Below, one piece after another: positions 1-58,737 of a stretch of DNA of 58,737 nt (its first letter is position 1; each line of letters begins with the position of its first letter). Source of the DNA: a virus. The notes beneath the pieces were generated by a model. It saw only the letters and a list, made by a program, of their open reading frames with translations, was not told where the DNA came from and ran no database searches. The stretch lies in IMG/VR virus record IMGVR_UViG_3300000968_000001, positions 1 to 58,737 of that record; one strand, given 5' to 3'. Both the position numbers and the translations under genes were made by a program.

Positions 1-49
1 TTTAAGCGTAGTTTTGTTCAGTAGTGTTTTCATTGTTTTAAGCGTTTGG
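1..49. repeat. Terminal direct repeat copy 1 (same as 58689..58737); signature of a circularly closed contig
   Basis: The first 49 nt (tttaagcgtagttttgttcagtagtgttttcattgttttaagcgtttgg) are repeated exactly as the last 49 nt of the window. Confidence 0.9.
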
Positions 50-5392: not shown

Positions 5393-5416
5393 AAGCACGC
5401 TGTGAAGCGTCCTGAA
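5393..5416 (+). promoter_or_regulatory. Conserved 24-mer AAGCACGCTGTGAAGCGTCCTGAA, copy 1 (ACGCT-GTGA-AGCGT hairpin)
   Basis: Exact repeat of 8725..8748; ends 6 nt before the TerL ATG at 5423. Confidence 0.7.
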
Positions 5417-5422
5417 ACACTT

Positions 5423-7420
5423 ATGAACTTAGAAGAACTACACCAGAGATTTGACGGATTCCCTACTGACGCCAGTAGGGCGGAAATGATGTCTCTTGCT
5501 TATACGAAAGTTAATTGGGAGGGGGTTAAGCACCGTGATCAAGTTTCTTCTGTATTAATGGGCAATGTTGATTACTGGAATAGCGGTGAGTTCTCTAGCC
5601 CATTGCAAGCAGAGTTATCTATCCTTAGGGGGGTGGATCAATATAAGTGGCATACAGAGCAACCATTTGGAAAGCCTATGTGGGAGCATCTATGCTGCTT
5701 AATGAAGCTCCTTAATCCTCAAAAGACAGATATACTCACTGGACTCTATGACTCAGCACAAGCTTTCTGCATATTACTAGGGACGGGCGGGAAGGTGCTT
5801 AATCAGTTAGGTGCGCGGTCAATGAGTAAGACGGGTGGTAATGTCCGATTAATGAGAGCATTAATGACCATTAAGCCAGAAAAGACGATGTTGTTCATTT
5901 CTTGCCCTACTGAGAAGGTTTCGGACACGGGCGCATGGGGTGACTTCAGGGCTATCTCAAATGACGCTCATAAAAACAATCCGCACCTATTCCCTGACTA
6001 TAAGGATTACAAAGATCGATTAGTTAGATTCATCAATAGTGATGATAAGTTCGGGGTGGCAATGGCTCGAACAACTGCTGAGGCGGGTAACTACCAAGGA
6101 ACTAAAGGGCATGAAGATGGTGATGGCTTCATCATTGTTTTTAATGAGGAGATCAATAAGCATCCAAGGTCTGCTTACATGGAGATTGAGGAGAATGTTA
6201 CCTCAAATAGACAGTTCATGTTCTTCAACGCTTGGAACTGGAAGAAAGATACCGATATGGGCGCAGTTGTATCTGAGCCTGATGCAGAGCGTTGTCAACT
6301 TAAGCAGCATAGTGATATTGATATAGATAATGATCAAGTCTATGATTGCGTAGGGGAGGGGCTTACAGTGCGATATGATGGGTTGTATTCTATCAACATG
6401 CTAGCGGGGCAGAGGCTTACTCCATATACCTTCTTTAATTACCAAGATGACTTCATGCCGCTACTCAAAAGGTATGGAAAAGAACACCCAACCTTTAAGT
6501 CACAAGCTAGAGCATACCCAGGTGCTAGCGGGGAGCACGAGACAGTTCTTTCACAAACAACCGTATTAAAATCTAGGTATAAAGATGTATTCACGGTTAA
6601 GAAAGTTATTGGTCGCACGGCGTTCTTAGACCCTGCATTTGGAGGGAAGGACTCACCTGAGTTTAGTTGGGCTGAGACACAAGAGATTTGGTATCACGAT
6701 GGAGGGGATGCCAAGGACAGGAAGGTTGCTACCGTTCTCGTATGGAAGGATTACATTAGAGCATTGAAGTTAGTTGCTGAAGCTCGATGGAATGACTTCT
6801 GGATAGAACGCGCTACGAACGCGGGTTTAATCATGACTCATGTTAAGCCTAATGAGCCTATTAACTATTCTGAGCAACTGGTGGTGCAAGTAGCGGAGAA
6901 GTGCAAGCAATACGACATTCCGTGGCGGAACTACGGGTTTGATTTCTCTATGGATGACACGATCATGACAGCTCATGATAAGCTTATGGGTTTTGATCAT
7001 AGTCCGTATAAGTATAATGTCACTAAGCTGGATGGGATTGAACTACCTCACCTCAATACAAACAGTAAGGATTTGTGCTACAATAAGCGTGACGAACTAT
7101 TTTTCCAAGCAGCAGGTATGTTTGAGAATCAAATGATCAGGAATGGAATGTTCATTGATCCAGCTATTGATGATTTATGCCGAACACGCTACGATGTGCG
7201 CGGGAGTAAGCGTAAGATTGAAGATAAAGCGGAGTTTAAGAAAAGGAACAGAGGACGTTCCCCTGATAAATTAGATGCCATGGTTGGCAACATAGACATG
7301 GCTAGAAGAAGAACAGGCTTGAAACAATTAAAGATGTCTGTTAAGAGTGTGAAACCTCAAAGCTTTTTTAGTGGAGCAGTGAGTGAATTTAATAAGGTAA
7401 GAAAAGGATTAAGATTTTAG
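5423..7420 (+). CDS. terL: Terminase large subunit
   Basis: Walker A-like GARSMSKTGG, Walker B-like GFIIVFNEE, nuclease motifs AFLDPAFGGKD and SPDKLDAMVGN; size and position upstream of the portal. The track start, GTG 5402, lies inside the conserved 24-mer, so ATG 5423 is preferred. Confidence 0.85.
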   Translation: MNLEELHQRFDGFPTDASRAEMMSLAYTKVNWEGVKHRDQVSSVLMGNVDYWNSGEFSSPLQAELSILRGVDQYKWHTEQPFGKPMWEHLCCLMKLLNPQKTDILTGLYDSAQAFCILLGTGGKVLNQLGARSMSKTGGNVRLMRALMTIKPEKTMLFISCPTEKVSDTGAWGDFRAISNDAHKNNPHLFPDYKDYKDRLVRFINSDDKFGVAMARTTAEAGNYQGTKGHEDGDGFIIVFNEEINKHPRSAYMEIEENVTSNRQFMFFNAWNWKKDTDMGAVVSEPDAERCQLKQHSDIDIDNDQVYDCVGEGLTVRYDGLYSINMLAGQRLTPYTFFNYQDDFMPLLKRYGKEHPTFKSQARAYPGASGEHETVLSQTTVLKSRYKDVFTVKKVIGRTAFLDPAFGGKDSPEFSWAETQEIWYHDGGDAKDRKVATVLVWKDYIRALKLVAEARWNDFWIERATNAGLIMTHVKPNEPINYSEQLVVQVAEKCKQYDIPWRNYGFDFSMDDTIMTAHDKLMGFDHSPYKYNVTKLDGIELPHLNTNSKDLCYNKRDELFFQAAGMFENQMIRNGMFIDPAIDDLCRTRYDVRGSKRKIEDKAEFKKRNRGRSPDKLDAMVGNIDMARRRTGLKQLKMSVKSVKPQSFFSGAVSEFNKVRKGLRF

Positions 7421-7422
7421 TT

Positions 7423-8124
7423 ATGGAGCCGATTAAAACAATACTATCAAGAAAGCCATATTTCAGATGTGCGGATAGAAAGAACCGCAAGGTTACGGAT
7501 TGCTTAGTGCGTGGTCGCCCTACAGAGGATTACTGGAGTGTTAAGTTCGTATTGAATGGCGTTCCTTATGAAACACCGAAAGGGAGGTGGAAAGAATCAA
7601 TAGAGTTAATGCGTGATGTATTAATTGTTAATGGCGTAAAGGATGCTGAATTAATCGCAGGCACATCGTGCAACTACGATTGGTTGATTAAGTCAAAGAA
7701 AGAGAATCAGTTAGTCGATCCAGAAACGCTTTTAAACTCCAGTGAGTTAGTCAACTTAACGATTACTCAAGGAGTGGTTACTGTGGAGAAAGAAGAACGT
7801 GAATTTAAAAGCCCTGATTTCTGGGGTGCGATTGACTGGCAGTATATGGGAATGGAGTTAGGATTCGATGACGTGACGGTAAGCAGCTTTAAGTCATTAA
7901 TCAATCGTGAGGCTCGAAAGCTTAATCCAGCACTTAATCCTAGCCGTGGATGTGAAACGTGCTATGGTCATTGGCTAGAGGCTATTAAAGGGTATAATCA
8001 CACAGTTACTACAGTTGATGGCGCGAGGAAGTGGCTATGGGAAACACACAACGAGGTTAACAAGCGGGAAGGGAAAGAAATCTTCTCATGGGACGATGCA
8101 GTTAAGCAATACGGATGGGATTAA
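7423..8124 (+). CDS. Erv1/ALR-family FAD-linked sulfhydryl oxidase-like protein (C-terminal domain) with an unknown N-terminal domain
   Basis: GCETCYGHWLEAIKGYNHTVTTVDGARKWLWETHNEVNKREGKEIFSW shows CxxC, then W..HNEVN...GK..F, as in ALR (PCEECAEDLRK...WLCHLHNEVNRKLGKPDF). Confidence 0.7.
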   Translation: MEPIKTILSRKPYFRCADRKNRKVTDCLVRGRPTEDYWSVKFVLNGVPYETPKGRWKESIELMRDVLIVNGVKDAELIAGTSCNYDWLIKSKKENQLVDPETLLNSSELVNLTITQGVVTVEKEEREFKSPDFWGAIDWQYMGMELGFDDVTVSSFKSLINREARKLNPALNPSRGCETCYGHWLEAIKGYNHTVTTVDGARKWLWETHNEVNKREGKEIFSWDDAVKQYGWD

Positions 8125-8606: not shown

Positions 8607-8610
8607 AAAA

Positions 8611-8641
8611 CAGGTAGCGTCACCCCAAGAAACGCTACCTG
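8611..8641. terminator. 10-bp hairpin (caggtagcgt/acgctacctg) between the TerL operon and the portal
   Basis: Perfect 10-bp stem and 11-nt loop; A6 upstream but only a weak T tract downstream. Confidence 0.4.
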
Positions 8642-8724
8642 TTAAACAATGAATATAACAACAGAACACGAAGTAATATTGATATGCGTAATTAAAGCAC
8701 ACACATAAAAAGAAGTCAAACCAA

Positions 8725-8748
8725 AAGCACGCTGTGAAGCGTCCTGAA
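8725..8748 (+). promoter_or_regulatory. Conserved 24-mer AAGCACGCTGTGAAGCGTCCTGAA, copy 2
   Basis: Exact repeat of 5393..5416; its last A is the A of the portal ATG. Confidence 0.7.
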
Positions 8749-11051
8749 TGATGAAAACAAAAATAAAAACCAAGTCACGGTTCTTTAAGTCTATTGAAGA
8801 AATCGAAAGGAAGCGCGAGCAGTATGATACTGTTGAAAAGCAAAGAGAGAGAAGATTCTTAAACGCAGTTCAGCGATTCTTTGCTGGGCTATCACAATTA
8901 CAGCAGAAGTATAAGCTCTCAGAGTGCGATGAAGAGGATGAGATTACGAATTACTTGATCGGATTCCCACTAATCCAAGCGCACAGAGATCAATACGCTG
9001 ATATGTTCAATGGCACAAATCGCCTCGTGCAGGTTCATTGCGTCAATACAGGGGATGTTAATCAAGAGGATCGTGACGGGAGAATCATCACGGAGGAGTT
9101 TAACAAACATATCATTAATTACGGCAAGGAAATTCCTAACCTCCTGAAGAGGATTTGCGATGAAGAGATGTTGTGCGGAGTAGCTATCTCGGTTCTCCCT
9201 GAGACAATGGGCTACATTCCTAATATTGAGCGTGACATAATCTTTCCTGAACACACGCGAATGGAGTCGAAAGATTTATCATTCTTCTGGCGACCTGTAA
9301 ACCTCTCCACAAAAGATCTGCTAGAATACGCTAACGACCCTAATGAGGAAGATAAGGACTACATCAATAAGGAAGCGATTAAAGGACTCCTAGAAGAGAT
9401 CGAGGAGAATATCAAGAATGGCGGTCGAGGAAGTGGATTCTGGAACAATGGGCAAACAGGCTCATATACTAAAGATTATCATAATGGATATGATGAGTTC
9501 TACACAGTTCCCACAGATCGAGATCTTCCCGCTCAGTGGTATTATGAAGTTCAAGAGGACGGAAGCTTAAGCAAGACCCTATACATTGAGAATCCCAGAA
9601 ACACCAAGAGCAATACGGAGATCATGTATATCAAGGGAGATGAGAAGATTCTAGCAGAAGACCTCATCGACTTCGCGAGCGTGCAAACCATGTTTGGTGG
9701 TGACGAGTATTTAGAATCAGCAGTTGGCTACATGCAACTCATCTATAACTTTTCCCTAGAGGAGACGGAAATGATTAACCGTGCGGCTGATCATATTAAT
9801 GAAAAGTTAAATGATGCCTTTGTCTTGGACGAGAATATCACATCTAAGGATGAAGCTAACCGATATGACAGACAACACAGCAAGTATCGTCCTGCTGGAT
9901 TGATGCGAGATAAAGATATGCCACGGATGCAGGAGTCGTTCCAGCTTATGGACTGGCTATCGCGAAAGTCAGAGCAGATCACAGGCACAACCCAGAGCAA
10001 TGCCCTAACCACGGATGGAAGATTCTCAGCAGAGTTTAAGCAGCAGGTAGCAGTCAATGGGAACAAGATGAAGACACTCGCGGCTATCCGTTACCGCAAC
10101 ATGCAACACCTCTTCCGAAAGATATTTATCCACGTTCTTAGAATGTGTGATGACATGGATAGAGTCGAAGAGATTAAGCCCCATGGATGGGAAGGTGTTA
10201 AGATATTCAAGGATTGCTTAAAACGAAAAGGAGTAAACCTCAAGAAATACAGCAAGCGTCTAGGAGGTCGCTTAAAGCACCTAGAAGTCAAAATAGATAA
10301 GGTTTTAGCACCTGGCGACCCACAATCATTCGAGGTGGAATCGGAGTCATTAATGAGCTTGCTACAGCACCTAGATCCCGTGGCGAGAAACCTCGCTAAA
10401 TATAAGCTTCTAGCCTCTAGGCATGGTTCAGACCACGCTGACGAACTCATGGGTAACACCCAAAAGCTCTCTGAGGTAACGCGAGATCAAGAGGAGCTTG
10501 CTTGGCTTAAGGTCTTCAAAATTAAAGAGAAAGCGGGAACTAACCAAAATGTTGAGATCGAGAATGGAACAGTCCACCAGTTGCACGCACTGGTCATGTT
10601 CCAAGCCCTAGAAGGGATGATTAATAAGGCGCAGATGGGGAGGCCGTGGACAGGCGCAGACACCCTAGAAGCGTCAGCCATCAATAACCACGCTGTAAAC
10701 CTAATTAATGCAGTGATGGAGCAAGGCTATGAGATGGAGGCTAAAGTTCTATACGAGCAATTTCTAACCTATCAGGAGGCTATTAAACAACTCTCAGCGG
10801 TTGCTGATCAACAATCACAACAGCAATCAAGCTCAGAGGATGAAATAAGAGCACATGAGTTAGCTCTAAAGATTCAGAGACTAGAGCTAGATCGGGATAA
10901 ATTCCAACTAGCACAAGCAAACATCCAGCGACTTCAGCAGAGTAATCAACTCAATGACCAACTGAAGATTAACAAGCATCAGGCTGATAATGTCTTCAAG
11001 GCAGAGAACCTAAGAATCCAAGATAAAAACGCATCACGAAATGAACGCTAA
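8748..11051 (+). CDS. Portal protein (putative)
   Basis: 767 aa, sits between TerL and the scaffold-like gene, Gln-rich coiled-coil C-terminus. Assigned by size and synteny only. Confidence 0.6.
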   Translation: MMKTKIKTKSRFFKSIEEIERKREQYDTVEKQRERRFLNAVQRFFAGLSQLQQKYKLSECDEEDEITNYLIGFPLIQAHRDQYADMFNGTNRLVQVHCVNTGDVNQEDRDGRIITEEFNKHIINYGKEIPNLLKRICDEEMLCGVAISVLPETMGYIPNIERDIIFPEHTRMESKDLSFFWRPVNLSTKDLLEYANDPNEEDKDYINKEAIKGLLEEIEENIKNGGRGSGFWNNGQTGSYTKDYHNGYDEFYTVPTDRDLPAQWYYEVQEDGSLSKTLYIENPRNTKSNTEIMYIKGDEKILAEDLIDFASVQTMFGGDEYLESAVGYMQLIYNFSLEETEMINRAADHINEKLNDAFVLDENITSKDEANRYDRQHSKYRPAGLMRDKDMPRMQESFQLMDWLSRKSEQITGTTQSNALTTDGRFSAEFKQQVAVNGNKMKTLAAIRYRNMQHLFRKIFIHVLRMCDDMDRVEEIKPHGWEGVKIFKDCLKRKGVNLKKYSKRLGGRLKHLEVKIDKVLAPGDPQSFEVESESLMSLLQHLDPVARNLAKYKLLASRHGSDHADELMGNTQKLSEVTRDQEELAWLKVFKIKEKAGTNQNVEIENGTVHQLHALVMFQALEGMINKAQMGRPWTGADTLEASAINNHAVNLINAVMEQGYEMEAKVLYEQFLTYQEAIKQLSAVADQQSQQQSSSEDEIRAHELALKIQRLELDRDKFQLAQANIQRLQQSNQLNDQLKINKHQADNVFKAENLRIQDKNASRNER

Positions 11052-11541: not shown

Positions 11542-12999
11542 ATGTCAAAACATCAAGATAACAAGAACGAAGCTAGTGATGAACTCGCAAGCTTACTAGG
11601 AGAACAAGACCCTACATTTGCTATGCCTAATAACACTCAGCGTAGCACACCAAGCCCAGAAAAGGAAGAAGTGGAGGAGGTTGTAGAAGTCGAGCCAAAA
11701 CAAACTGAAGGGCTAGATGGAAATGGCATTCCGCTTTCCACGGAGCCTAGCGAGGAGATTCCATCGGATGATGATGACCTAAAGAAAGAAATCGAAGCAT
11801 TAAGTGCTGAAGAGTTTTCTGAGGAGAAGCCTAAAGAAGATGATGGAACAGACTGGTCAGAGCTAGAGGAGTTTTCCCCAGAGGATTACACCAATAAAGA
11901 AAAGATCCCCGCTATCCGAGAAGATAACCGCAAGAAGTCACTAGAAGCGAAGAGACTACGTGAAGAGAAGATTCAGTATGAGAGTCAGCTTGAGGAGTTA
12001 CAGGCTAAGGTTCAAGATTACGAACAGAAGGTTAAGAGTCAAGAGCCAGTAGTTAACGCACATGAAGATCCTGAGTGGCAGCGCATCAATACCGAGGTAG
12101 TCTCCAAAGCTAAAGCGTTTGATAACGACCTCATGCTAACTACAGGATCATCTATACCTCTCGCTTCAGGCGAAAGGTTTGAGAGTTTGTTCACTGAGTA
12201 TCAGCAGGTCAATGATGACGCACAGAGCAAGCGGGAATTCCTAATGAAAGCATCCCTAGAGCTAATGGGGAAAAGTGATTCCATCACGGATAATATCATT
12301 GATGGAGAGTGGGATATTAAATCTACGTTATCAGAGCTAGAGCCAGATGAACGAATCTCTGTAACACAGGCGATTAAGAGCTTGGATGGAGTCCTATCTT
12401 TTGCTTCAGAGTCATCCTCTAAGCTTCGTAAAATCGAGGCTGATATTAATGAGAACTCAGGCAAGTATCTAGCAGAGTCACGTATCAAGAAGTATGAGGA
12501 AAGCTCAACCAGCTTCCGTGAGTCGCTTAAGGGAGTAGGCATCTTAGATGAACAAGCGGTAGAGAGTGACCCTAACTCATTCAGCGCATTCATTCATGAG
12601 CGTATGTCCGACCCTAAGAACAAGGGGAATATCGAAAGCGCAATCAAGATGCACACGGAATATAAGCATGGTCGCCCGCAGATTAGCGAGAAGGTTTATG
12701 AGAGCTTTGAGCTTGAAGGCAAAGACCGCAAGTATGTCGATAAGATGGCTGATGAGGCGCATTCTAAGAGGGTGGCTAGCATGGATAAAGAGATTCACAT
12801 GTATCTCTCTAACCGCGAGTTAATCCAAGAAGCTGTCCGTCAATACAACAAGGCGCAGAAGAAAGCAGAACTCAAAAAGAAAGAGAAGAAGCAGGTGAGC
12901 AGCGCAGAGACATTACCTACTCGAAAGGAGTCCACATCTAAAGATTCGGGTGATGTAGACCACTTAGCCTCACTTCTTAATTTCAACCCTAGACGATAA
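11542..12999 (+). CDS. Scaffolding-like protein (acidic, coiled coil, no Cys noticed)
   Basis: Highly acidic, E/K-rich 485-aa product located between portal and capsid. Confidence 0.45.
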   Translation: MSKHQDNKNEASDELASLLGEQDPTFAMPNNTQRSTPSPEKEEVEEVVEVEPKQTEGLDGNGIPLSTEPSEEIPSDDDDLKKEIEALSAEEFSEEKPKEDDGTDWSELEEFSPEDYTNKEKIPAIREDNRKKSLEAKRLREEKIQYESQLEELQAKVQDYEQKVKSQEPVVNAHEDPEWQRINTEVVSKAKAFDNDLMLTTGSSIPLASGERFESLFTEYQQVNDDAQSKREFLMKASLELMGKSDSITDNIIDGEWDIKSTLSELEPDERISVTQAIKSLDGVLSFASESSSKLRKIEADINENSGKYLAESRIKKYEESSTSFRESLKGVGILDEQAVESDPNSFSAFIHERMSDPKNKGNIESAIKMHTEYKHGRPQISEKVYESFELEGKDRKYVDKMADEAHSKRVASMDKEIHMYLSNRELIQEAVRQYNKAQKKAELKKKEKKQVSSAETLPTRKESTSKDSGDVDHLASLLNFNPRR

Positions 13000-13732: not shown

Positions 13733-13805
13733 ATTCCTGTAGCTCAATGGTTAGAGCGGGCGACTCATAATCGCTAGGTTCTCGGTTCAAGTCCGAGCGG
13801 GAGTA
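13733..13805 (+). tRNA. tRNA with anticodon CAT (elongator Met, or Ile2 if lysidine-modified)
   Basis: Hand-folded cloverleaf: acceptor ATTCCTG/CGGGAGT, D arm GCTC-AATGGTTA-GAGC, anticodon arm GGCGA-CTCATAA-TCGCT, T arm CTCGG-TTCAAGT-CCGAG, discriminator A; no encoded CCA. Confidence 0.85.
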
Positions 13806-13812
13806 TCCTAAA

Positions 13813-13852
13813 GCGCATGTGGCCAAGTGGTTAAGGCGGAGGTTTGCAAAAC
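13813..13852 (+). pseudogene. Truncated tRNA-Cys(GCA) 5' half (acceptor to anticodon loop + 2 nt)
   Basis: GCGCATG-TG-GCC-AAGTGGTTAA-GGC-G-GAGGT-TTGCAAA-AC, after which homology stops. No ACCTC partner, T arm or 3' acceptor follows locally. Confidence 0.6.
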
Positions 13853-13868
13853 AAAATAAAATAAACGA

Positions 13869-14339
13869 ATGAAGAAATTGAAATTTTACAAAAGGATCAG
13901 AGTCGATGGAAAGACAGTCCTTGAGCATAGGCACTTGATGGAGGTCAGTATAGGGAGAAAATTAAAAACCTTAGAGCATGTCCACCATAAGGATGGAGAT
14001 ATATTTAATAATGATCTGAGTAACTTGGAAGTTTTGAGCGCATCTGATCACGCTAGATTACACTTTACAAAAACTAACAAGACTTATTCAAAATGCGAAC
14101 TTTGTGATGAGGTGTGTGATGGCTCAAGGAGGTTTTGTGGCGTAAAGTGCTTTGACTTATGGAGGTCGAGCCTTATTCCAGATAAGGAGACTATAGTATC
14201 AGACCTCCTTTCTAGCGAGACATTTACATCACTAGGCAAGAAGCACGGAGTTAGTTGTAACGCATTCAGGAAGTGGTGTGTAAAGTATGGCTTGCCTAGC
14301 AGACTCAAAGAGAGGAAGCATTGGGTATTATCTCATTAA
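13869..14339 (+). CDS. HNH homing-type endonuclease
   Basis: LEHRHLME...LEHVHHKDGDIFNNDLSNLEVLSASDHARLH (HNH_3-like) plus a C-terminal Cys/HTH-like region; sits between the tRNA-Cys half and the full tRNA-Cys. Confidence 0.85.
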   Translation: MKKLKFYKRIRVDGKTVLEHRHLMEVSIGRKLKTLEHVHHKDGDIFNNDLSNLEVLSASDHARLHFTKTNKTYSKCELCDEVCDGSRRFCGVKCFDLWRSSLIPDKETIVSDLLSSETFTSLGKKHGVSCNAFRKWCVKYGLPSRLKERKHWVLSH

Positions 14340-14346
14340 TTTTAAA

Positions 14347-14426
14347 GCGTGTGTGCCTGAGTGGTCTAAAGGGTTCGATTGCAAATCGAATATTATTCGT
14401 GAGTTCAAATCTCTCCATGCGCTCCA
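14347..14426 (+). tRNA. tRNA-Cys (anticodon GCA) with encoded CCA
   Basis: Acceptor GCGTGTG/CATGCGC (two G-U pairs), D arm CCT-...-AGG with GG in the loop, anticodon arm TTCGA-TTGCAAA-TCGAA, T arm GTGAG-TTCAAAT-CTCTC (one T-T mismatch), unusual 8-nt variable region, T + CCA. Confidence 0.75.
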
Positions 14427-14493: not shown

Positions 14494-14697
14494 GGGTATT
14501 CAAGGCTTACGAACTCCCTATTCCAAAGGGAGCAACTGCATAAGAAATAAAGAGAACTTGGCGTAGATGGATCAGCCACCATCCTCAACACATTTCAAAG
14601 CGGTGGATAGGGTTAGCATACTATCTGGAAAAGGAAATTAGAAACCAATCGGGAAATCCGTTTGGTAAACTTATTTAATCTTAAACCAGATAGAAAA

Positions 14698-16638
14698 ATG
14701 TCAGAAATTTGCTACGATAAAATCCCTGCGGCTATTTACGCCGACAAAGAAAGAAACCAACGATTCTTAATGGATCGTGAAAGAGCCAAGTGGTCTGAGA
14801 CAGATGTTCTCGATAAAGTGGCTTTCCAAGGCCAAATCTCACCTACTACAAACCTAAACATCGTCAAGATGTCTAAGTCTATGGCTTGTCCAGTAGGGTT
14901 TAGTGAAAAGAACTACCAACTAGAGGAGTGCCAACCAGACAATTACGAAGTAGGAACACAAACAGGACGAACTAATTGCGGAGGTGACTCAGAATGCGCT
15001 ACGCAAGAAACCTTAGTTACAAAGAAAGATGGTTCATGTCGCCCTGAGATGTGCGAGATTCCATACGCTCAAGGACACCGCGTTATTGAGCCTTTTGATT
15101 GGAAAGGAGCATTTAAGTCTCAGACCATGTGCGCTGAAGAACTTTATAACCACGGAGGATCACAACACCTTTATGATTACAATGAGGCCGTAAAAGAGCA
15201 CTTCTCTGATTGGCTTACATATAACTATCAGATGAACCTCCTTAACGAGCTTGGGTTGCGTGCAGAATCAAACTCCTCGGAAGGTTGGTCAAATAACGGA
15301 TCAGTTGCATCTAAATACACTTGGCACGGAAAACCTAAAGGTTACCTGTCTATCTCACACCTTAAGCAGTTGCGTAAAGTACTTCATATCAGAGGTGGAC
15401 TAAATGAAGGAAAACTTCGCCTAGAAGGCCCGATGGAGGACTTTATTCGCGCTATCCAAGACTACGAATGCAATGTTCTCGGCAAGCAGTTCTGTGATGT
15501 TTCTTATAACCGTGTCCAATACGAAGATAAAGAAGGAATGCTTCGCGGTCGTGAATACATCGAGTACGAAGGGATTTGCTACTACCGTAATGAATATCCA
15601 CGTAAAGCAATCTGGATCCAGAAAGGTAAATCAGCTTCACTTAAGTATATCTATCCATATGTTGACTCAACAGAAGCGGCTGAAGTCGGATTAATGAAGG
15701 AGGATAACGATGAATACTACGGTGAGTATGTTTACTGTGATGGGTCGTATCACGACCTTATCACAATCTATGATTTCATTCACCCGATGTCATCTAAACG
15801 CTGGACTCTCGATAAACCTATTAACCCTGAGAGTGACAACACCTCAACAGGACTTGAGCTTCACGTAGCTAAAGAGTGGCAAATTCCTTGCAATATCAAT
15901 AAGGATAAGTGGTTCTACTACTCACGCCCTCGTATGAGACACCTCGTTGAATACCCAGAGCATCTAGGCTTCCACCTTGCACTATCACGTGATACAGGCG
16001 GCGGGGAAATTGTTGTTACCACCAAAACATCCAGAATTCCAACTGACAATACCAAGTGCGGAATTCCAACAGTGCCACCTAAGTATGATACATGCGCTGA
16101 TGATGGTTCATGCGCTGAGTGTGATGACACAACTACTTGTGAGGCAGTAACGGCGAGCATCGTTCCATGCCCTAATAAGGAGCTATACTATGAAGGAGTG
16201 TTTGCTGACGGTGACACGCAAGAAGCGGCATACCGCATTGAACTATCTGCACCAGCGTGTGAGGATGGAACAATCGACTACGCCTTCGTTGATGGTGATG
16301 CAGTATTCGGAACTAACTACGATGTAGCTAGTGGCCAAACTGGAACAATTAACGTTGTCGCGGGAGATGCTGAAATCGTAGTGCCATTCACCGTTCTAGG
16401 AGTTGATCCTGACGCTGACGGCGATGCAGATCCAGCAACTATCTCTAAAGTATCTGGAACACTCACTCTCACAGGAGCAACTGGAGGAGTAGAGCTTGCA
16501 ACAGATTGCGTAGAGTCCACCTTCTGCATTATCGATAACTCTAGCGAGTGCGGTAGTGAAGAGTGTGGCGCGGATGCTGATTGCCCTAACTGCACAGGAA
16601 CAGGAAGCGCAGTAGGAGGCGGAACAACAAATCCTTAA
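14698..16638 (+). CDS. Putative major capsid protein with a Cys/Asp-rich C-terminal extension
   Basis: A single gene bracketed by a strong promoter and terminator, downstream of portal and scaffold. About 26 Cys by hand count. No fold-level evidence. Confidence 0.5.
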   Translation: MSEICYDKIPAAIYADKERNQRFLMDRERAKWSETDVLDKVAFQGQISPTTNLNIVKMSKSMACPVGFSEKNYQLEECQPDNYEVGTQTGRTNCGGDSECATQETLVTKKDGSCRPEMCEIPYAQGHRVIEPFDWKGAFKSQTMCAEELYNHGGSQHLYDYNEAVKEHFSDWLTYNYQMNLLNELGLRAESNSSEGWSNNGSVASKYTWHGKPKGYLSISHLKQLRKVLHIRGGLNEGKLRLEGPMEDFIRAIQDYECNVLGKQFCDVSYNRVQYEDKEGMLRGREYIEYEGICYYRNEYPRKAIWIQKGKSASLKYIYPYVDSTEAAEVGLMKEDNDEYYGEYVYCDGSYHDLITIYDFIHPMSSKRWTLDKPINPESDNTSTGLELHVAKEWQIPCNINKDKWFYYSRPRMRHLVEYPEHLGFHLALSRDTGGGEIVVTTKTSRIPTDNTKCGIPTVPPKYDTCADDGSCAECDDTTTCEAVTASIVPCPNKELYYEGVFADGDTQEAAYRIELSAPACEDGTIDYAFVDGDAVFGTNYDVASGQTGTINVVAGDAEIVVPFTVLGVDPDADGDADPATISKVSGTLTLTGATGGVELATDCVESTFCIIDNSSECGSEECGADADCPNCTGTGSAVGGGTTNP

Positions 16639-18427: not shown

Positions 18428-21133
18428 ATGGCCACATTTAAATATTTACTAGACGGGTGTTTACCAGATTGTGATTCTGGTGTATTCACATTTCAACTAC
18501 TTAGTCAATCAGGCATCACAGGATTCCCTACAGAGATTGATATGCAACTCGTATCTACGGGTGAGACATACGTAAACGGGAAGAAGGTAAAGGAATACAC
18601 CTTTGACTTCGACCTTTCGCTTATTGCGCCACTAGAACGACTTAACTTATGTGACCTAGAACAAGATCCAGATGGTCTCCACGGATTTCCTACATGCAAA
18701 GTATGCGCGTCAACGTGCGAACTTGAGGAGCGTGTAGAAATTCTCGAAGCAAAGGTTGACGAGAATACTCGTTATGACTTTAACTTCACTCGCAGTGGGG
18801 ACAATCTAGTATATACAGCAACGCCCAACGATGGAGGTGCACCTTATACTCAGACCATCCAAGATGTGTTTGTAGATACAGATACGCTCGATGTGTCTCA
18901 ATTTAGTGGAACTGTGAGCAATGGTATTGTTACTATTAACCATTCATCAGGCGGCAATAGTTCAAACATTCAATTCCCCCTCGGAGTATCAAGTGTAGCT
19001 ACTAACTCTAACCCAGATGGTTCAACAACTATTACTTATGTAGATGGAGAAGGCAATACACAAACAGCGGGTGTAATCCCAACAGGTAGTGAAAGCTCTG
19101 TTTTAACTACAACAAACGCTAATGGTTCAGTTACTTATACGCATGATGCAGGAAATGGGGACGCGCCAGTAAGTTGGACAGTGTTCCCGCCAACTATTGA
19201 CACCAACTGTTGCACAACAGATTTAAGACTTAATCCGACAGGAGGAGTAGCTGGAACGCCAGTATATGAGGCGGAGATTACGGATTTAATCAGCGGGGCT
19301 GCAAGCGTCATAGCTGCACCTGCGGGAGTTTCTAGTGATGCTAACAACTCACTCACAGTGGGAGCTGATGGATTACCTTATTACAACGATGTCGATATTG
19401 TTACTGAAGTGACTCAAAACGCCAGTGGTGCATGGGAGGTTACTGAGAATGGAGTCTTAGTAGAGACTATTACGGACACGACTATTGCAGACACTAATAC
19501 CAATGCTAGTATTGTTAATAACGCAGACGGCACGGTAACAATTACGAATGATGCAGGTCAAACTTGGACAAGCGGAGTTACTGCATCATCTGGATGTCCT
19601 GATACATTCGCATCTATTACAGATGAAGATGCTCGTAACGTATCAGCTTCGGGTTGCGGTGACGACATCACCCTCCACAGAACGCTTAACGTAGGGGATG
19701 AGCATACAAGCTCAACTGGAAATGGGGATATTAGCGTTGCATCATTGGACTCTAATCATAGCGCGAGCGGTGGGGTTGTAGGAGTAACTACAGATCACAA
19801 CACTCTAATCGCAAACTCATTAAGCTCAACAGCTACAGGAGCAGGATCTACAGTGGTTAGCTCATGGGAATCTACAGCATCTGGCGTAAACTCCTTTGTT
19901 GCATCATCAACTTTCAGCACGTCCGTGACAGGTAATTTCTCTACAGCTATCAACGCTGGCAGCGGGTTAAATGAAGGAGATTATTCATCGATTTACGGAT
20001 GGCGAGCATTCAACTATGGTGACGGATCATTCGTAAACGGAGGCAATAGATATGTAGGCACTGGATCTTCCGCTGAAAATAGGCTTAATGGTTCTTTTGT
20101 TTACGGAAGAGATGCTAAAAATTTGAATACTGGAGATTACACATTCACGCGGAATAATTTTCTATTCGGAGATAATTCTTTTGTAGATAACAATTTAAAT
20201 TCAGTCTGTTTTGGTGCTACAATTGAATCTGGAGGGAGTCATAATTTTGCATTTGGAAATAATTCAACAATAAGCTTAGCTAGCGGAACCACCTCATCAA
20301 CTGGGGCGACACTAACAGGTGCAAACCAAGCGATTGGGTCTCAAATAACTATCGAGATAGACACCCTTAATGACACTGAGCTTGACTCAAGAGCTGGGGA
20401 TGGGGGCTTAGGAAGATCGACAGGTCTTGGCTATGCTCATTTAATTGAGTCATCCCAAGCAACCTCAATAGGTTACAGAGGCCATGTTTTACCAGGTCAT
20501 AGAAACGCAATGGTCTTAAGTGGGAACAATCAGGCTTCATCGCCACCCACTACATCGACAGGTCTAGCCACCTTGACAGCACTATTTCCGGGAGGATATA
20601 CCTTCTGGACAAATAATGCTCAAACGGTAGGGGTGACACTTACTGGTTCTGGATGGGTATCAACATCTACTAGAGATTCTAAAAAGAACTTCGCAGATGT
20701 AGGAAGTGTGATTGAAGCGGTGGAGAACACTCTCCCTAAAGCGGAATCATGGCAGTATGACGCCGAACTCACTAAGGTGGTAGGGGTAGAAGAAGTGGAA
20801 TACGAATACACTGATATTGACGAATCCATTCAAAGGGAAATTGAAGAACTGGAATCAGAGAGTGCAGATACGAGCGAAAAGCGAAAAGAGTTATCTGAAA
20901 GACTCAAAATAACAAAGAAGGTTACAAGAAAGAAAAACATCATTTCTGAGGAGCAGCCAATATTTATTGGGTATATGGCTGAAGACTTCTCGAAACTAGG
21001 ATATGGATCATCTACGCAAGGCATCGAACCCTTGCAACTTGCAACCATAGCACTAGAATACGCAAGGGAGGTTAAATATATTAATGATGAATTAACATCT
21101 AGGATTGAAAAGCTTGAAAATACCATTAAGTAA
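18428..21133 (+). CDS. Tail fibre with a C-terminal intramolecular chaperone (peptidase S74-like) domain
   Basis: Shared N-terminal domain, Gly/Ser/Thr/Asn-rich repetitive body, ...STRDSKKNFADVG... and a C-terminal coiled coil (LQLATIALEYAREVKYINDELTSRIEKLENTIK) typical of auto-cleaving chaperone domains. Confidence 0.65.
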   Translation: MATFKYLLDGCLPDCDSGVFTFQLLSQSGITGFPTEIDMQLVSTGETYVNGKKVKEYTFDFDLSLIAPLERLNLCDLEQDPDGLHGFPTCKVCASTCELEERVEILEAKVDENTRYDFNFTRSGDNLVYTATPNDGGAPYTQTIQDVFVDTDTLDVSQFSGTVSNGIVTINHSSGGNSSNIQFPLGVSSVATNSNPDGSTTITYVDGEGNTQTAGVIPTGSESSVLTTTNANGSVTYTHDAGNGDAPVSWTVFPPTIDTNCCTTDLRLNPTGGVAGTPVYEAEITDLISGAASVIAAPAGVSSDANNSLTVGADGLPYYNDVDIVTEVTQNASGAWEVTENGVLVETITDTTIADTNTNASIVNNADGTVTITNDAGQTWTSGVTASSGCPDTFASITDEDARNVSASGCGDDITLHRTLNVGDEHTSSTGNGDISVASLDSNHSASGGVVGVTTDHNTLIANSLSSTATGAGSTVVSSWESTASGVNSFVASSTFSTSVTGNFSTAINAGSGLNEGDYSSIYGWRAFNYGDGSFVNGGNRYVGTGSSAENRLNGSFVYGRDAKNLNTGDYTFTRNNFLFGDNSFVDNNLNSVCFGATIESGGSHNFAFGNNSTISLASGTTSSTGATLTGANQAIGSQITIEIDTLNDTELDSRAGDGGLGRSTGLGYAHLIESSQATSIGYRGHVLPGHRNAMVLSGNNQASSPPTTSTGLATLTALFPGGYTFWTNNAQTVGVTLTGSGWVSTSTRDSKKNFADVGSVIEAVENTLPKAESWQYDAELTKVVGVEEVEYEYTDIDESIQREIEELESESADTSEKRKELSERLKITKKVTRKKNIISEEQPIFIGYMAEDFSKLGYGSSTQGIEPLQLATIALEYAREVKYINDELTSRIEKLENTIK

Positions 21134-21146
21134 TATTATCATTTTT

Positions 21147-22115
21147 ATGAGTCTTCTATGTCACAGTAAATCAAGCGCAGATAATAAACCGTATCGTTAT
21201 ATTATCTATGGTCAAAGTAACGCTTATGGGCCTAACCCTAACACTACCAACTTCCCACAAGCGGTTGACACAACTATAGACGCAAGAGTAAAAATATGGG
21301 CTAATGCTAAACACGGGGGATTAAATGCCTTCGGAAATCTTGACGGTAAAGGAGAATGGGAGTCGTGGGATATATCAGCATCGCCAAGGCAATACGGAAG
21401 TTATAGCGAAACGAATCAAAGATCAAATAACGCTCTTTACTCACTAGCGAAAAAAGTAGCCTCTGAAACAGGTAATGAAGTGGAGTGCATTGTTTGCGCT
21501 TTTGCAGGCTCTCCTATATCTAACTTGGTTGATATTAACGGATTCGGCTTCAGTTTGCTTAGTGATATACTTAGCAATGTAGAATGGGATTACGTAGATG
21601 GCATTATCTTTATTCAAGGGGAGTCAGATCAAAACACTCCGCTAGCTGATTATGAAAACTTATTCATAACAATGAGGGGAAATATGAGCAATCTTAACCC
21701 TATTAATGATAATACTCCAATGTATGTAGTGCAGTTGCAAGAAGTTGGAGCAGGAGGGGTTTCTGGTGATTTTGCGATGAACGAGTTTTTAGAAACTACA
21801 CCTAACAGGATTGATTATCCTTTCTATTACATAAAAACAGATGGGTTGGAGGCCAGAGATAGGTTACATTTCTCTAATAATGGGCTAAATGAGTTAGGGG
21901 GAGTTAGGTTATGGAATGAAATATCCAACAATAATATCTTCTTAGACAGAAACCTAACTCAAGTAAAAACCGACAACGGAAACGCGGTGGTTTTTTTTGG
22001 AGGGGACTCATTAGAATACTCGGACGACTTAGTGAGTTGGTTTACAATTTCTGGCGCGACTAGCCCATATACTGAACCTTTAGTCCAAAGAAGATTTTAC
22101 AGATCGACAAATTAA
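21147..22115 (+). CDS. SASA/SGNH-type carbohydrate O-acetylesterase-like protein
   Basis: YIIYGQSNAYG (GQSN block), IIFIQGESD (QGES block), DRLHFS (D..H). First ATG downstream of the fibre stop. Confidence 0.6.
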   Translation: MSLLCHSKSSADNKPYRYIIYGQSNAYGPNPNTTNFPQAVDTTIDARVKIWANAKHGGLNAFGNLDGKGEWESWDISASPRQYGSYSETNQRSNNALYSLAKKVASETGNEVECIVCAFAGSPISNLVDINGFGFSLLSDILSNVEWDYVDGIIFIQGESDQNTPLADYENLFITMRGNMSNLNPINDNTPMYVVQLQEVGAGGVSGDFAMNEFLETTPNRIDYPFYYIKTDGLEARDRLHFSNNGLNELGGVRLWNEISNNNIFLDRNLTQVKTDNGNAVVFFGGDSLEYSDDLVSWFTISGATSPYTEPLVQRRFYRSTN

Positions 22116-26980: not shown

Positions 26981-27160
26981 ATGCCTAAATGCCCAATAGA
27001 CGGATGTAAAAAAACCTGCTCCTGCTCATGCAGAAAAGGGCGCGAGTGTGGGCTATTAAAGACGAAGTTAAACACTGAGAAAGTAATAGATAAAAAAGTA
27101 ATAGATAAAAAAATAATCTACTCCCCTAAGAATGGAGTGGTTCGACTTAAAAGAAAATAA
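26981..27160 (+). CDS. Small Cys-rich ORF (59 aa, MPKCPIDGCKKTCSCSCRKGRECG...)
   Basis: ATG 5 nt after the upstream stop; contains an in-frame 15-nt tandem duplication; just below the track cutoff. Confidence 0.3.
   Translation: MPKCPIDGCKKTCSCSCRKGRECGLLKTKLNTEKVIDKKVIDKKIIYSPKNGVVRLKRK
27081..27110 (+). repeat. Tandem duplication 2 x 15 nt (AAGTAATAGATAAAA), with a degenerate third unit
   Basis: Read directly from the sequence; encodes KVIDK-KVIDK in the small ORF frame. Confidence 0.85.
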
Positions 27161-27161
27161 T

Positions 27162-58721: not shown

Positions 58722-58737
58722 TGTTTTAAGCGTTTGG
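58689..58737. repeat. Terminal direct repeat copy 2
   Basis: Identical to bases 1..49. Confidence 0.9.

What the first reader, a model, noticed from the sequence alone, without database searches (positions are those of the whole stretch)
7423..8124. Erv1/ALR-type sulfhydryl oxidase encoded in the late (terminase-portal) operon of a tailed phage
The C-terminal ~110 aa read ...NPSRGCETCYGHWLEAIKGYNHTVTTVDGARKWLWETHNEVNKREGKEIFSWDDAVKQYGW. An active-site CxxC followed by W..HNEVN...GK..F is the core signature of FAD-linked Erv1/ALR thiol oxidases (compare human ALR, PCEECAEDLRK...WLCHLHNEVNRKLGKPDF). Characterised viral members of this family (poxvirus E10R, ASFV pB119L, mimivirus R596, baculovirus P33) build disulfides in virion proteins inside a reducing cytoplasm. 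Here the gene lies between TerL and the portal, so it should be co-expressed with structural genes. The unknown ~120-aa N-terminal domain carries a C16-x10-C27 pair that could act as shuttle cysteines (inference). I cannot tell from the sequence alone how rare this is among phages.
Basis: partly seen in the sequence, partly recalled or inferred. Interest (0 to 1): 0.85.

Follow-up and report, generated by a model that had tools for sequence, protein, structure and literature searches.

The report
Phage-encoded Erv-type disulfide-forming oxidase
An uncultivated tailed phage carries, right after its DNA-packaging gene, a protein whose C-terminal half is a genuine Erv/ALR-type flavin thiol oxidase, an enzyme so far known only from eukaryotes and their large DNA viruses, so some phages may make their own disulfide bonds for the virus particle inside the reducing bacterial cell.

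Summary
The ORF (7423-8124, +, 233 aa) is real, and its C-terminal ~105 aa form a bona fide Erv/ALR domain.

- **Family membership.** Pfam PF04777 scores 39.4 bits against a cut-off of 27.6. The family profile matches whole solved Erv domains (ASFV pB119L, E=6e-10). An AlphaFold model (pLDDT 92.7) retrieves only Erv oxidases. 11 of 13 mapped Erv1 reference positions are kept, including the CxxC and both 'invariable' residues.
- **New architecture.** The N-terminal ~110 aa form a domain with no known relative. The two-domain protein defines an uncultivated family (101 clusters at 50% identity) with no relative in 50,697 deposited phage genomes.
- **Conserved position.** The gene follows a divergent TerL in every one of the 50 related loci that extend that far, usually just before a ~765-aa portal-sized gene.
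- **Repeated loss.** The Erv domain was inactivated or deleted about four times, while the N-domain gene is almost always kept.
- **Candidate substrate.** Two co-occurring cysteine pairs in the Cys-rich putative capsid protein track an intact Erv domain.
- **Not supported.** The portal and capsid labels rest on position only.

FAD binding, catalysis and the substrate are inferred. [quoted passage not shown]

The parts
7423..8124 (+). Gene for the 233-aa two-domain protein (novel N-domain + Erv/ALR sulfhydryl-oxidase domain)
   Evidence: ORF and translation; PF04777; family of 101 representative clusters
7423..7752 (+). N-terminal domain (residues ~1-110): beta strands 7-50 then three helices; lineage-specific, no known family; invariant P33, N84, W87
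   Evidence: AF2 model pLDDT >90 over this region; alignment; no Pfam/PHROG hit; kept even where the Erv domain is dead or deleted
7753..7809 (+). Low-confidence, variable-length linker (residues ~111-129)
   Evidence: pLDDT 63-73 with a stretch below 50 at residues 119-122; gappy alignment columns
7810..8121 (+). Erv/ALR domain (residues ~130-233): helices 131-145, 153-167, 178-194, 198-215, 223-230
7951..7962 (+). Active-site C177-E-T-C180 (equivalent to yeast Erv1 C130/C133), preceded by invariant G176
   Evidence: Cys in 97 and 98 of 101 family representatives; invariant in A1; codons verified
7837..7839 (+). W139, equivalent of the 'invariable' Erv1 Trp95 that stacks on the isoalloxazine ring
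   Evidence: mapping onto the residue list of PMC4721541
8047..8061 (+). H209-N-E-V-N213 motif (equivalent to Erv1 H162-N-K-V-N166) in helix 4
5402..7420 (+). Divergent large terminase subunit (672 aa; the true start may be the ATG at 5423): Walker A G137..K143-T144, Walker B E249-E250, nuclease D410/D417/D514
   Evidence: the L006 orthologue hits PHROG 2 'terminase large subunit' E=9.2e-6 over residues 90-621; invariant catalytic residues; no direct Pfam/PHROG/PDB hit for the window protein
8748..11051 (+). Portal-sized protein (767 aa); identity inferred only from size and conserved position downstream of TerL and the Erv gene
   Evidence: synteny; no homology-based identification
11542..12999 (+). 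Cys-free, highly charged 485-aa protein in the scaffold position
   Evidence: position and composition only
14347..14426 (+). Phage-encoded tRNA-Cys (GCA), ~235 nt upstream of the Cys-rich putative capsid gene
14662..16638 (+). Cys-rich (26 Cys, 4.0%) putative major capsid protein with a C-terminal Calx-beta domain; candidate Erv substrate. Numbering is from the TTG at 14662; the ATG at 14698 may be the true start
   Evidence: synteny; Calx-beta; Cys content
15052..15054 (+). C131 of the putative capsid protein; co-occurs strictly with C478 (pair 1); never lost in lineages with an active Erv
16093..16095 (+). C478, partner of C131 (pair 1)
16168..16170 (+). C503, at the first strand of the Calx-beta domain; co-occurs with C616 (pair 2); found only in genomes with an active Erv
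16507..16509 (+). C616, at the last strand of the Calx-beta domain, partner of C503 (pair 2)

Best explanation
The gene encodes a two-domain head-module protein of an uncultivated tailed-phage lineage. The C-terminal ~105 residues are a catalytically intact Erv/ALR-fold domain. It most likely binds FAD, takes electrons from pairs of substrate thiols through its C177-x-x-C180 disulfide next to the flavin, and passes them to O2, producing H2O2. This would create disulfide bonds in the otherwise reducing bacterial cytoplasm while virions assemble. The N-terminal ~110 residues are a novel domain that is the almost always retained part of the gene. It probably has its own role in head assembly and, by inference, docks the oxidase onto the assembling head. 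The best candidate substrate is the Cys-rich putative major capsid protein, specifically the pairs C131-C478 and C503-C616, the latter stapling its surface-exposed Calx-beta domain. Shown here: homology, fold, motif conservation, conserved gene position, repeated domain decay, and cysteine/Erv co-variation. Inferred: FAD binding, oxidase activity, timing of expression, the docking role of the N-domain, and substrate identity.
For: Erv identity:
- PF04777 is above its gathering threshold.
- The family profile matches whole Erv domains of pB119L, AtErv1, Erv1, ALR, QSOX, Erv2 and R596.
- The AF2 model has pLDDT 92.7 with five helices. The top 31 PDB matches are all Erv oxidases, and every named match among the top 50 in BFVD is a sulfhydryl oxidase of a large eukaryotic DNA virus.
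- Catalytic and FAD-contact residues are kept: G135, W139, C177, C180, W184, W204, H209, N210, V212, K218, F221 correspond to Erv1 G91, W95, C130, C133, F137, W157, H162, N163, V165, K171, F174.

Context:
- The start codon lies 2 nt after the TerL stop, on the same strand, with no terminator-like site between TerL and this gene.
- The order TerL, this gene, ~765-aa gene, ~600-aa Cys-rich gene holds in every related locus that extends far enough.

Substrate:
- The virion module is bimodally Cys-rich (eight proteins at 2.2-4.5% Cys, eight with none) with non-zinc-finger spacing.
- In the putative capsid protein, C131/C478 and C503/C616 co-occur strictly as pairs. Pair 2 is found only with an active Erv. 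Pair 1 is never lost while Erv is active but is lost in 3 of ~4 independently inactivated clades.
- The four columns give naive Fisher p=0.0014-0.004, against best p=0.035 for TerL and 0.026 for the portal-like protein.

No thioredoxin- or glutaredoxin-type partner is encoded, which fits direct oxidation.
Against: - No biochemistry: FAD binding and activity are untested.
- Two FAD-contact positions differ from Erv1 (R92 becomes A136, Y128 becomes R175), and the helix-1 His is Gly. ASFV pB119L also differs at the first two.
- The Erv domain has been inactivated or deleted about four times while the gene and the generally Cys-rich virion proteins persist. The oxidase is therefore dispensable for the lineage, and most virion cysteines do not depend on it.
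- Whole-module Cys content does not separate active from inactive genomes.
- The co-variation rests on 18 lineages, naive statistics and an NJ tree with weak deep nodes. Only one column survives Bonferroni correction.
- 'Capsid' and 'portal' identities rest on position only.
- A stem-loop at ~8610-8642 may separate this gene's transcript from the portal-like gene.
Confidence: 0.6

Rival explanations
1. The essential function of the gene is head assembly, carried out by the N-terminal domain. The Erv domain is a dispensable add-on, and virion disulfides (if any) form spontaneously in oxygenated water after lysis. The link between Erv integrity and capsid cysteines would then reflect shared ecology or ancestry rather than an enzyme-substrate relationship.
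For: The N-domain gene is kept after TerL in nearly all loci, while the Erv domain is dead in 15 and absent in 9 of the 50 classified loci, arising in about four clades. Cys-rich virion proteins persist in lineages with a dead Erv, for example 24 Cys in a 741-aa protein of L026. The N-terminal CxxC of the N-domain occurs regardless of Erv status. PMC13576161 notes that disulfides can form spontaneously in oxygenated surroundings.
Against: In 26 loci, and in 97-98 of 101 family representatives, the CxxC and the flavin-contact residues are strictly conserved across sequences only 22-40% identical, which implies selection on catalysis. Specific capsid cysteine pairs track Erv integrity better than any Cys column in TerL or the portal-like protein. 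Dead-Erv lineages also occur in surface-ocean TARA data, so anoxia alone is not an obvious explanation.
Confidence: 0.25
2. The oxidase acts on targets other than the capsid protein. Candidates are the very Cys-rich tail-module proteins with terminal C-x-C motifs, or host proteins and thiol pools (redox manipulation, counter-defence or lysis timing).
For: Other proteins are even richer in Cys: 23631-25628 has 30 Cys and ends CNCGCGC, and 28127-30055 has 20 Cys and ends CTC. By my own knowledge, C-x-C motifs on flexible tails are known Erv2 shuttle or substrate motifs. Erv enzymes also oxidise small dithiols (PMC3509050).
Against: Orthologues of one Cys-rich tail-module protein (27132-28127) keep similar Cys counts whether Erv is active or dead, and the L026 module stays Cys-rich. 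The gene's position is fixed in the head-morphogenesis block, not among early or host-takeover genes. No signal for host targeting was found.
Confidence: 0.1
3. The Erv domain of this window's protein is a non-catalytic structural module, comparable to the degenerate psi-Erv domain of QSOX, and binds no FAD.
For: Degenerate Erv domains that keep the fold but lack CxxC clearly exist at the same locus in related phages (L004/L026, L015/L030, L040, L058). Arg92, Tyr128 and the helix-1 His of Erv1 are substituted in the window protein.
Against: The window protein keeps CxxC, W139, H209, N210, V212, N213, K218 and F221. The same substitutions at R92 and Y128 occur in crystallised, FAD-bound ASFV pB119L.
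Confidence: 0.05

Closest known systems
ASFV pB119L (PDB 3GWL) and other compact viral Erv oxidases of nucleocytoplasmic large DNA viruses
   Same: Best sequence-profile match (E=5.7e-10, whole domain) and among the best fold matches (TM 0.66-0.68 normalised to the target). Shares the W-G-x-x-x-W helix-1 motif, a single FAD-proximal CxxC, no CX16C structural disulfide and non-canonical residues at Erv1 R92/Y128. Virus-encoded, and proposed to act on virion proteins in a reducing cytoplasm.
   Different: The host is a bacterium and the virus a tailed phage. Here the domain is fused to a novel ~110-aa N-terminal domain. The helix-1 His is replaced by Gly. No thioredoxin-like partner is detectable. 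The domain is repeatedly lost within the lineage.
Baculovirus P33/Ac92 and mimivirus R596 (Erv domain fused to an extra folded 'ORFan' domain)
   Same: An Erv catalytic core joined to a lineage-specific folded domain with no apparent redox role (PMC3509050). R596 is matched by the family profile.
   Different: The extra domain is unrelated and N-terminal here. R596 uses a CX9C shuttle that contributes to catalysis, whereas no conserved shuttle pair exists in the phage family.
Cellular Erv1/ALR and Erv2 (PF04777)
   Same: Four-helix bundle plus fifth helix; CxxC at the start of helix 3; W95, W157, H162, N163, V165, K171 and F174 equivalents retained.
   Different: No CX16C structural disulfide (W206 at the C159 position). 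No conserved N- or C-terminal shuttle disulfide. About 20-24% identity over the aligned ~100 columns. Predicted to act in the bacterial cytoplasm rather than the mitochondrial intermembrane space or the ER.
QSOX psi-Erv domain (degenerate Erv fold; own knowledge)
   Same: The dead Erv domains in sister phages (no CxxC, no His/Asn motif, but Trp equivalents kept) resemble a fold retained for structure only.
   Different: This applies to relatives, not to the window protein, which is catalytically intact by sequence.
Disulfide-stabilised tailed phages without a known oxidase (Agrobacterium phage Milano; Bacteroides phage PD491P1)
   Same: Structural proteins about 2% Cys: Milano 2.1% (PMC13576161); here 2.17% from the putative capsid gene onward.
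   Different: Those phages are not reported to encode an oxidase, and no relative of this protein is found in the 50,697 deposited phage genomes. For the present phage, disulfides have not been observed.

Membership tests
Erv/ALR sulfhydryl oxidase family (Pfam PF04777) | Significant match to the family HMM above the curated gathering score | tested here: met
   39.4 bits vs 27.6, E=8e-10. The single sequence aligns only to model positions 38-91 of 93, but the family profile aligns across the full domain of solved members.
Erv/ALR sulfhydryl oxidase family (Pfam PF04777) | Four-helix bundle plus a short fifth helix (the Erv FAD-binding fold) | tested here: met
   AF2 with a 40-sequence alignment, pLDDT 92.7, helices 131-145, 153-167, 178-194, 198-215, 223-230. 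The top 31 PDB matches are all Erv enzymes, TM up to 0.70 normalised to the target. This is a prediction, not an experimental structure.
Erv/ALR sulfhydryl oxidase family (Pfam PF04777) | Redox-active CxxC at the N-terminus of helix 3, next to the flavin | tested here: met
   C177-E-T-C180 aligns with Erv1 C130/C133. Cys in 97 and 98 of 101 family representatives.
Erv/ALR sulfhydryl oxidase family (Pfam PF04777) | Conserved flavin-contact residues (Erv1 G91, R92, W95, Y128, C133, F137, H162, V165, K171, F174; W95 and H162 'invariable' per PMC4721541) | tested here: met
   G135, W139, C180, W184, H209, V212, K218, F221 retained, plus W204 and N210. R92 becomes A136 and Y128 becomes R175, and the crystallised ASFV enzyme also substitutes both positions. 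R182/W183 could not be mapped reliably; W232 is nearly invariant.
Erv/ALR sulfhydryl oxidase family (Pfam PF04777) | Bound FAD and thiol:O2 oxidoreductase activity | not testable with these tools
   Needs purified protein: flavin spectrum and an O2-consumption or H2O2 assay.
Erv1/ALR subfamily proper (mitochondrial type) | C-terminal CX16C structural disulfide and an N-terminal CxxC shuttle disulfide | tested here: not met
   The position of Erv1 C159 is W206. C16/C27 occur only in P0001-P0003. The N-terminal 'MAC-x-x-C' of other members is absent from the window protein and occurs independently of Erv integrity. The protein is therefore a member of the Erv superfamily but not of this subfamily.
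Viral virion-morphogenesis Erv oxidases (vaccinia E10R, ASFV pB119L, baculovirus P33, mimivirus R596) | Virus-encoded and expressed with structural genes | tested here: inconclusive
   The gene is in the head module, 2 nt after TerL, on the same strand, and this position is conserved. No expression data are available. A stem-loop may end the transcript before the portal-like gene.
Viral virion-morphogenesis Erv oxidases (vaccinia E10R, ASFV pB119L, baculovirus P33, mimivirus R596) | Required for disulfides in virion proteins | tested here: inconclusive
   Comparative only. Two Cys pairs of the putative capsid protein co-vary with Erv integrity, but overall virion Cys richness does not.
Viral virion-morphogenesis Erv oxidases (vaccinia E10R, ASFV pB119L, baculovirus P33, mimivirus R596) | Thioredoxin-fold relay partner (as in vaccinia E10R-A2.5L-G4L) | tested here: not met
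   No WCGPC, CPYC or CPHC-type motif in any ORF of at least 60 aa in six frames. This is a motif scan only and would miss divergent partners.
Tailed-phage (Caudoviricetes-type) head-packaging module | Large terminase with Walker A/B ATPase and RNase-H-like nuclease motifs | tested here: met
   The orthologue hits PHROG 2 TerL at E=9.2e-6 over residues 90-621. K143, E250, D410, D417 and D514 are invariant across 16 diverse orthologues. There is no direct hit for the window protein itself.
Tailed-phage (Caudoviricetes-type) head-packaging module | Portal protein and HK97-fold major capsid protein | tested here: inconclusive
   Only size and conserved order. There are no Pfam, PHROG or PDB sequence matches even with 12- and 13-member profiles, apart from a C-terminal Calx-beta domain.

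The most novel reading that the evidence does not exclude
This would be the first dedicated disulfide-forming machinery of bacteriophages. A flavin oxidase is tethered by a new head-module domain to the assembling capsid and installs specific disulfide staples in the capsid protein (including one across a surface Calx-beta domain) inside the reducing bacterial cytoplasm. A further, more speculative reading is that this deep and diverse phage family bears on the unexplained origin of the Erv fold, which otherwise lacks clear bacterial members.
Probability: 0.45. Interest if true: 0.85.

Novelty: new variant of a known kind. Interest (0 to 1): 0.72.

Why it matters
Erv/ALR oxidases are textbook eukaryotic enzymes and hallmark genes of giant and large eukaryotic DNA viruses. 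[quoted passage not shown]

Several recently solved phages are held together by extensive disulfide networks, and how these form is unknown. A phage-encoded cytoplasmic oxidase with a candidate substrate, defined down to four cysteines, turns that question into a bench experiment. It also offers a compact (233 aa) enzyme, naturally adapted to a bacterial cytoplasm, for producing disulfide-bonded proteins. It extends the Erv family into tailed phages with a new domain architecture. Finally, its repeated natural inactivation provides built-in controls for studying when covalent capsid stapling pays off.

Tried and rejected
- Single-sequence AlphaFold gave pLDDT 38 and was useless.
- The word-indexed search of 5.8 billion proteins found only the query itself. 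With the profile it found only 9 proteins. The exhaustive HMMER search was needed.
- blastn and tblastn against 50,697 deposited phages found nothing, using the window DNA, the window Erv protein, two more central Erv family members, and two TerLs.
- Pfam and PHROG scans of about 30 window proteins left most of the virion module unannotated.
- Profile searches of the TerL, portal-like and capsid-like alignments against PDB sequences found nothing except the Calx-beta domain. PHROG scans of 12-13 diverse orthologues did not identify the portal or the capsid protein.
- The N-domain has no Pfam, PHROG or fold match.
- The first alignment was too diverse for back-translated pattern scanning, and the scan with the closest relatives found nothing in IMG/VR.
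- Rejected: that C16/C27 or the N-terminal CxxC is an Erv shuttle.
- Rejected: that total virion Cys content tracks Erv status.
- Rejected: that the inactive-Erv genomes form one clade, that is, a single loss.
- Rejected: that a thioredoxin- or glutaredoxin-like partner is encoded.
- Two residue-numbering offsets caused by hmmalign trimming were caught and corrected.
Full report
**1. The observation**

Codon positions were verified: C16, C27, C177-x-x-C180 and H209-N-E-V-N213.

**2. Is it an Erv/ALR domain?**

Yes, by four independent lines.

- Pfam PF04777 gives E=8e-10 and 39.4 bits, above the curated cut-off of 27.6. Only the second half of the model (positions 38-91 of 93, residues 176-229) aligns to the single sequence.
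- An exhaustive HMMER search of 1.84 billion representatives found 101 clusters at E<=1e-3, mostly 200-270 aa. A 40-sequence alignment shows invariant G176, C177, C180, N210 and W139. Its profile matches the whole Erv domain of solved enzymes: ASFV pB119L residues 6-100 of 106 (E=5.7e-10), Arabidopsis Erv1, yeast Erv1, ALR, QSOX1, Erv2 and mimivirus R596.
- AlphaFold2 with that alignment gives pLDDT 92.7. The model has an N-terminal alpha/beta domain, a disordered linker, and helices 131-145, 153-167, 178-194, 198-215 and 223-230. The single-sequence run had failed.
- Foldseek returns Erv-family oxidases for the top 31 PDB matches. In the viral library, every named match among the top 50 is a sulfhydryl oxidase of a large eukaryotic DNA virus.

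I then mapped the yeast Erv1 FAD-contact list from PMC4721541. The window protein keeps G135, W139 ('invariable' W95), C177/C180, W184, W204, H209 ('invariable' H162), N210, V212, K218 and F221. Only R92 (A136) and Y128 (R175) differ, and the crystallised ASFV enzyme also substitutes both positions. The Erv1/ALR-type CX16C structural disulfide is absent (W206). The protein therefore belongs to the Erv superfamily and resembles the compact viral enzymes more than mitochondrial Erv1/ALR. FAD binding and activity cannot be tested here.

**3. What is the window?**

It is a complete genome. The first 49 nt repeat at the end, which indicates circular assembly. It is 58.7 kb at 42% GC. It encodes:

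- an integrase, a DnaB helicase, a ParB-like protein, a methyltransferase and an exonuclease;
- a 1,787-aa protein matching a PHROG 'virion structural protein';
- a SASA esterase and an HNH endonuclease;
- two tRNAs, Met and Cys.

Most virion-module proteins match nothing in Pfam or PHROGs. No deposited phage genome matches by DNA or protein. The lineage is uncultivated and very divergent.

**4. The neighbours**

The upstream 672-aa protein has no direct database hit. Its L006 orthologue, however, hits PHROG 2 'terminase large subunit' (E=9.2e-6, residues 90-621). Across 16 diverse orthologues the Walker-A Lys (K143), the Walker-B Glu (E250) and nuclease aspartates (D410, D417, D514) are invariant. 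TerL is therefore supported.

The 767-aa 'portal' and the 658-aa 'capsid' proteins could not be identified by any sequence method, even with 12-13-member profiles. The one exception is a C-terminal Calx-beta domain on the capsid-like protein. Those two labels rest on size and order only.

The Erv gene starts 2 nt after the TerL stop, with an AAAGGA ~14 nt upstream. No terminator-like site lies between the two genes on the + strand; the only + strand site in the scanned region is inside TerL.

**5. Conserved position**

- Protein-baited loci from IMG/VR all show TerL-like, then this gene, then a ~765-aa gene, then a ~610-aa gene. Two metagenomic proteins give the same order with larger sizes (portal-like 823-828 aa, capsid-like ~634 aa) and, in one locus, a 101-aa gene between TerL and this gene.
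- TerL-baited sampling, which is unbiased with respect to Erv, used IMG/VR, GTDB genomes (two MAG contigs, one binned as Rubritalea) and JGI/TARA/ENA metagenomes. Together these made 54 loci from marine, freshwater, soil and other samples.
- In every one of the 50 loci where the contig extends past TerL, the next gene is a member or derivative of this family.

**6. Repeated decay of the Erv domain**

Of the 50 classifiable loci:

- 26 have an intact domain (W95, CxxC and N163 equivalents);
- 15 have a full-length but dead domain, for example GC-x-x-C replaced by 'GTSSD' with the HN motif lost;
- 9 encode only the N-domain, as 125-143-aa proteins with genuine stop codons; one further short ORF (L062) counted among the 9 is cut by the contig end.

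On a bootstrapped TerL tree the basal lineages (the window, L020/22, L037/45) are active. Inactive genomes fall in about four separate clades. One is a 100%-supported sister of active lineages, and another is sister (72%) to the active L023 group.

The N-domain is the almost always retained part of the gene and matches no known family or fold. Its sequence is unrecognisable only in the degenerate L015/L030 group. It must have a role of its own, plausibly in head assembly. I infer that it also targets the oxidase to the head.

**7. Shuttle cysteines**

- C16/C27 occur only in the three closest relatives and lie in confidently modelled beta strands.
- Many members instead start 'MAC-x-x-C'. That motif is equally common with active (14/24), dead (5/12) and absent (7/9) Erv domains, so it belongs to the N-domain's own function.
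- Four apparently active members have only the two active-site cysteines.
- Lack of a shuttle is normal for compact viral Erv enzymes (PMC3509050). For this sub-clade a CX10C shuttle cannot be excluded, since R596 uses a CX9C.

**8. Candidate substrates**

Cysteine use in the virion module is bimodal. Eight proteins have 2.2-4.5% Cys, for example 26 in 658 aa, 30 in 665 aa (ending CNCGCGC) and 20 in 642 aa (ending CTC). Eight have none, including the 1,787-aa protein. The spacing is not zinc-finger-like. The region from the capsid-like gene onward is 2.17% Cys, comparable to the 2.1% reported for the disulfide-networked phage Milano (PMC13576161). A tRNA-Cys gene sits ~235 nt upstream of the Cys-rich capsid-like gene.

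Overall Cys richness does not track Erv status: active 1.7-2.2%, dead 2.1-2.2%, degenerate 1.6%, absent 1.2-1.7%. In the capsid-like protein, however, four columns behave as two strictly co-occurring pairs, C131+C478 and C503+C616.

- Pair 2 occurs only in genomes with an active Erv: 8 of the 11 active lineages have Cys at C503 and none of the 7 inactive lineages do.
- Pair 1 is present in all 11 active lineages and lost in 5 of 7 inactive ones, spread over 3 of the ~4 inactive clades.
- The local alignments are clean. C503 and C616 flank the Calx-beta domain, at its first and last strands, which is a plausible intradomain staple.
- Naive Fisher p values are 0.0014-0.004 for these four columns. 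The best Cys column reaches p=0.035 in TerL (28 lineages) and p=0.026 in the portal-like protein (25 lineages).

This evidence is suggestive, not conclusive. The deep tree nodes are weak, the statistics are not phylogenetically corrected, and only one column survives Bonferroni correction. No thioredoxin-, glutaredoxin- or DsbA-type motif is encoded.

**9. Mechanism proposed**

Shown: Erv fold and motifs; head-module position; family-wide conservation of catalytic residues; repeated loss; Cys-pair co-variation.

Inferred: FAD is bound at the mouth of the bundle. Substrate dithiols reduce C177-C180, electrons pass to FAD and then to O2. The N-domain provides head association. The capsid-like protein's two Cys pairs are the substrates. 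The oxidase is beneficial but dispensable.

Rivals are scored in the rival-explanations section: the N-domain is the real function and disulfides form spontaneously; other targets; a pseudoenzyme.

**10. Novelty**

Full-text searches found no report of an Erv or sulfhydryl oxidase in a tailed phage. One review notes sporadic PF04777 hits in Verrucomicrobia, Planctomycetes, Cyanobacteria and other groups, which may be prophages of this kind. [quoted passage not shown] PHROGs and INPHARED hold no relative.

The enzyme kind is known. What is new is its presence in a tailed phage of bacteria, the fusion to a new domain, and its place as a conserved head-module gene. I rate it a new variant of a known kind, interest 0.72.

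Noticed in passing
window 1-49 and 58689-58737: The first 49 nt of the window are repeated exactly at its end, so the contig is a circularly closed assembly and probably a complete ~58.7-kb phage genome.
   Followed up: partly
window 5394-5417 and 8726-8749: An identical 24-nt element, AAGCACGCTGTGAAGCGTCCTGAA (5-bp stem ACGCT/AGCGT with a GTGA, GNRA-type loop), lies immediately before the TerL start region and the portal-like ATG, and nowhere else in the genome. It may be a shared late-gene leader or regulatory hairpin. It also suggests that the true TerL start is the ATG at 5423 rather than the listed GTG at 5402.
   Followed up: partly
window ~8610-8642: An 11-bp perfect stem-loop (ACAGGTAGCGT...ACGCTACCTGT) directly follows the 58-aa ORF's stop codon and has no T-run. 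It may be a transcript end or processing site separating TerL-Erv-two small ORFs from the portal-like gene.
   Followed up: no
window 13733-14426: tRNA-Met (13733-13805) and tRNA-Cys (14347-14426) flank a 156-aa, 7-Cys ORF (13869-14339) rich in His and Cys, inserted between the scaffold-position gene and the Cys-rich capsid-like gene. The capsid-like gene uses 18 TGC and 8 TGT codons. A phage-borne tRNA-Cys next to exceptionally Cys-rich late genes is suggestive.
   Followed up: partly
window 23631-25628, 28127-30055, 27132-28127: These tail-module proteins have extreme cysteine content and terminal C-x-C motifs: 665 aa with 30 Cys ending CNCGCGC; 642 aa with 20 Cys ending C-T-C; 331 aa with C-G-C near the N-terminus. 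By contrast, eight virion-module proteins, including the 1,787-aa one (34582-39945), have no cysteine at all.
   Followed up: partly
window 16168-16638; L001 14833-16665: The putative capsid protein ends in a Calx-beta (Ig-like) domain (Pfam E=3.9e-11 in L001; PDB profile E=4e-12). The window copy has an extra Cys-rich C-terminal tail (C622...C644) absent from the relatives.
   Followed up: partly
window 21105-22115: A SASA-type sialate/carbohydrate O-acetylesterase domain (PF03629, E=2e-12) lies in the tail region. It is probably a receptor-modifying tail-spike activity and a hint about the host surface.
   Followed up: no
L004/L005 10001-10738; L015 8024-8689; L006 10001-10378; L008 7977-8363: Sister phages carry, at the same position, either a full-length but catalytically dead Erv domain or only the N-terminal domain. 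These are natural 'knock-outs' useful for comparative and experimental work.
   Followed up: yes
L018 (CAKZNV010000053.1, Rubritalea MAG) and L017 (CAYOVH010000009.1, Saccharibacteria MAG): These are the only two hits among 185,579 species-representative genomes. The 55.7-kb Rubritalea contig is phage-genome-sized, so it may be a co-binned phage rather than an integrated prophage. It is a weak hint of a Verrucomicrobia host.
   Followed up: no
family alignment (L001, L017, L020 groups; 19 of 101 representatives): A large sub-clade replaces the 'invariable' Erv His162 equivalent with Met, and sometimes K171 with Val or Ala, while keeping CxxC, W95 and N163. This may be a variant flavin environment worth testing biochemically.
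   Followed up: partly
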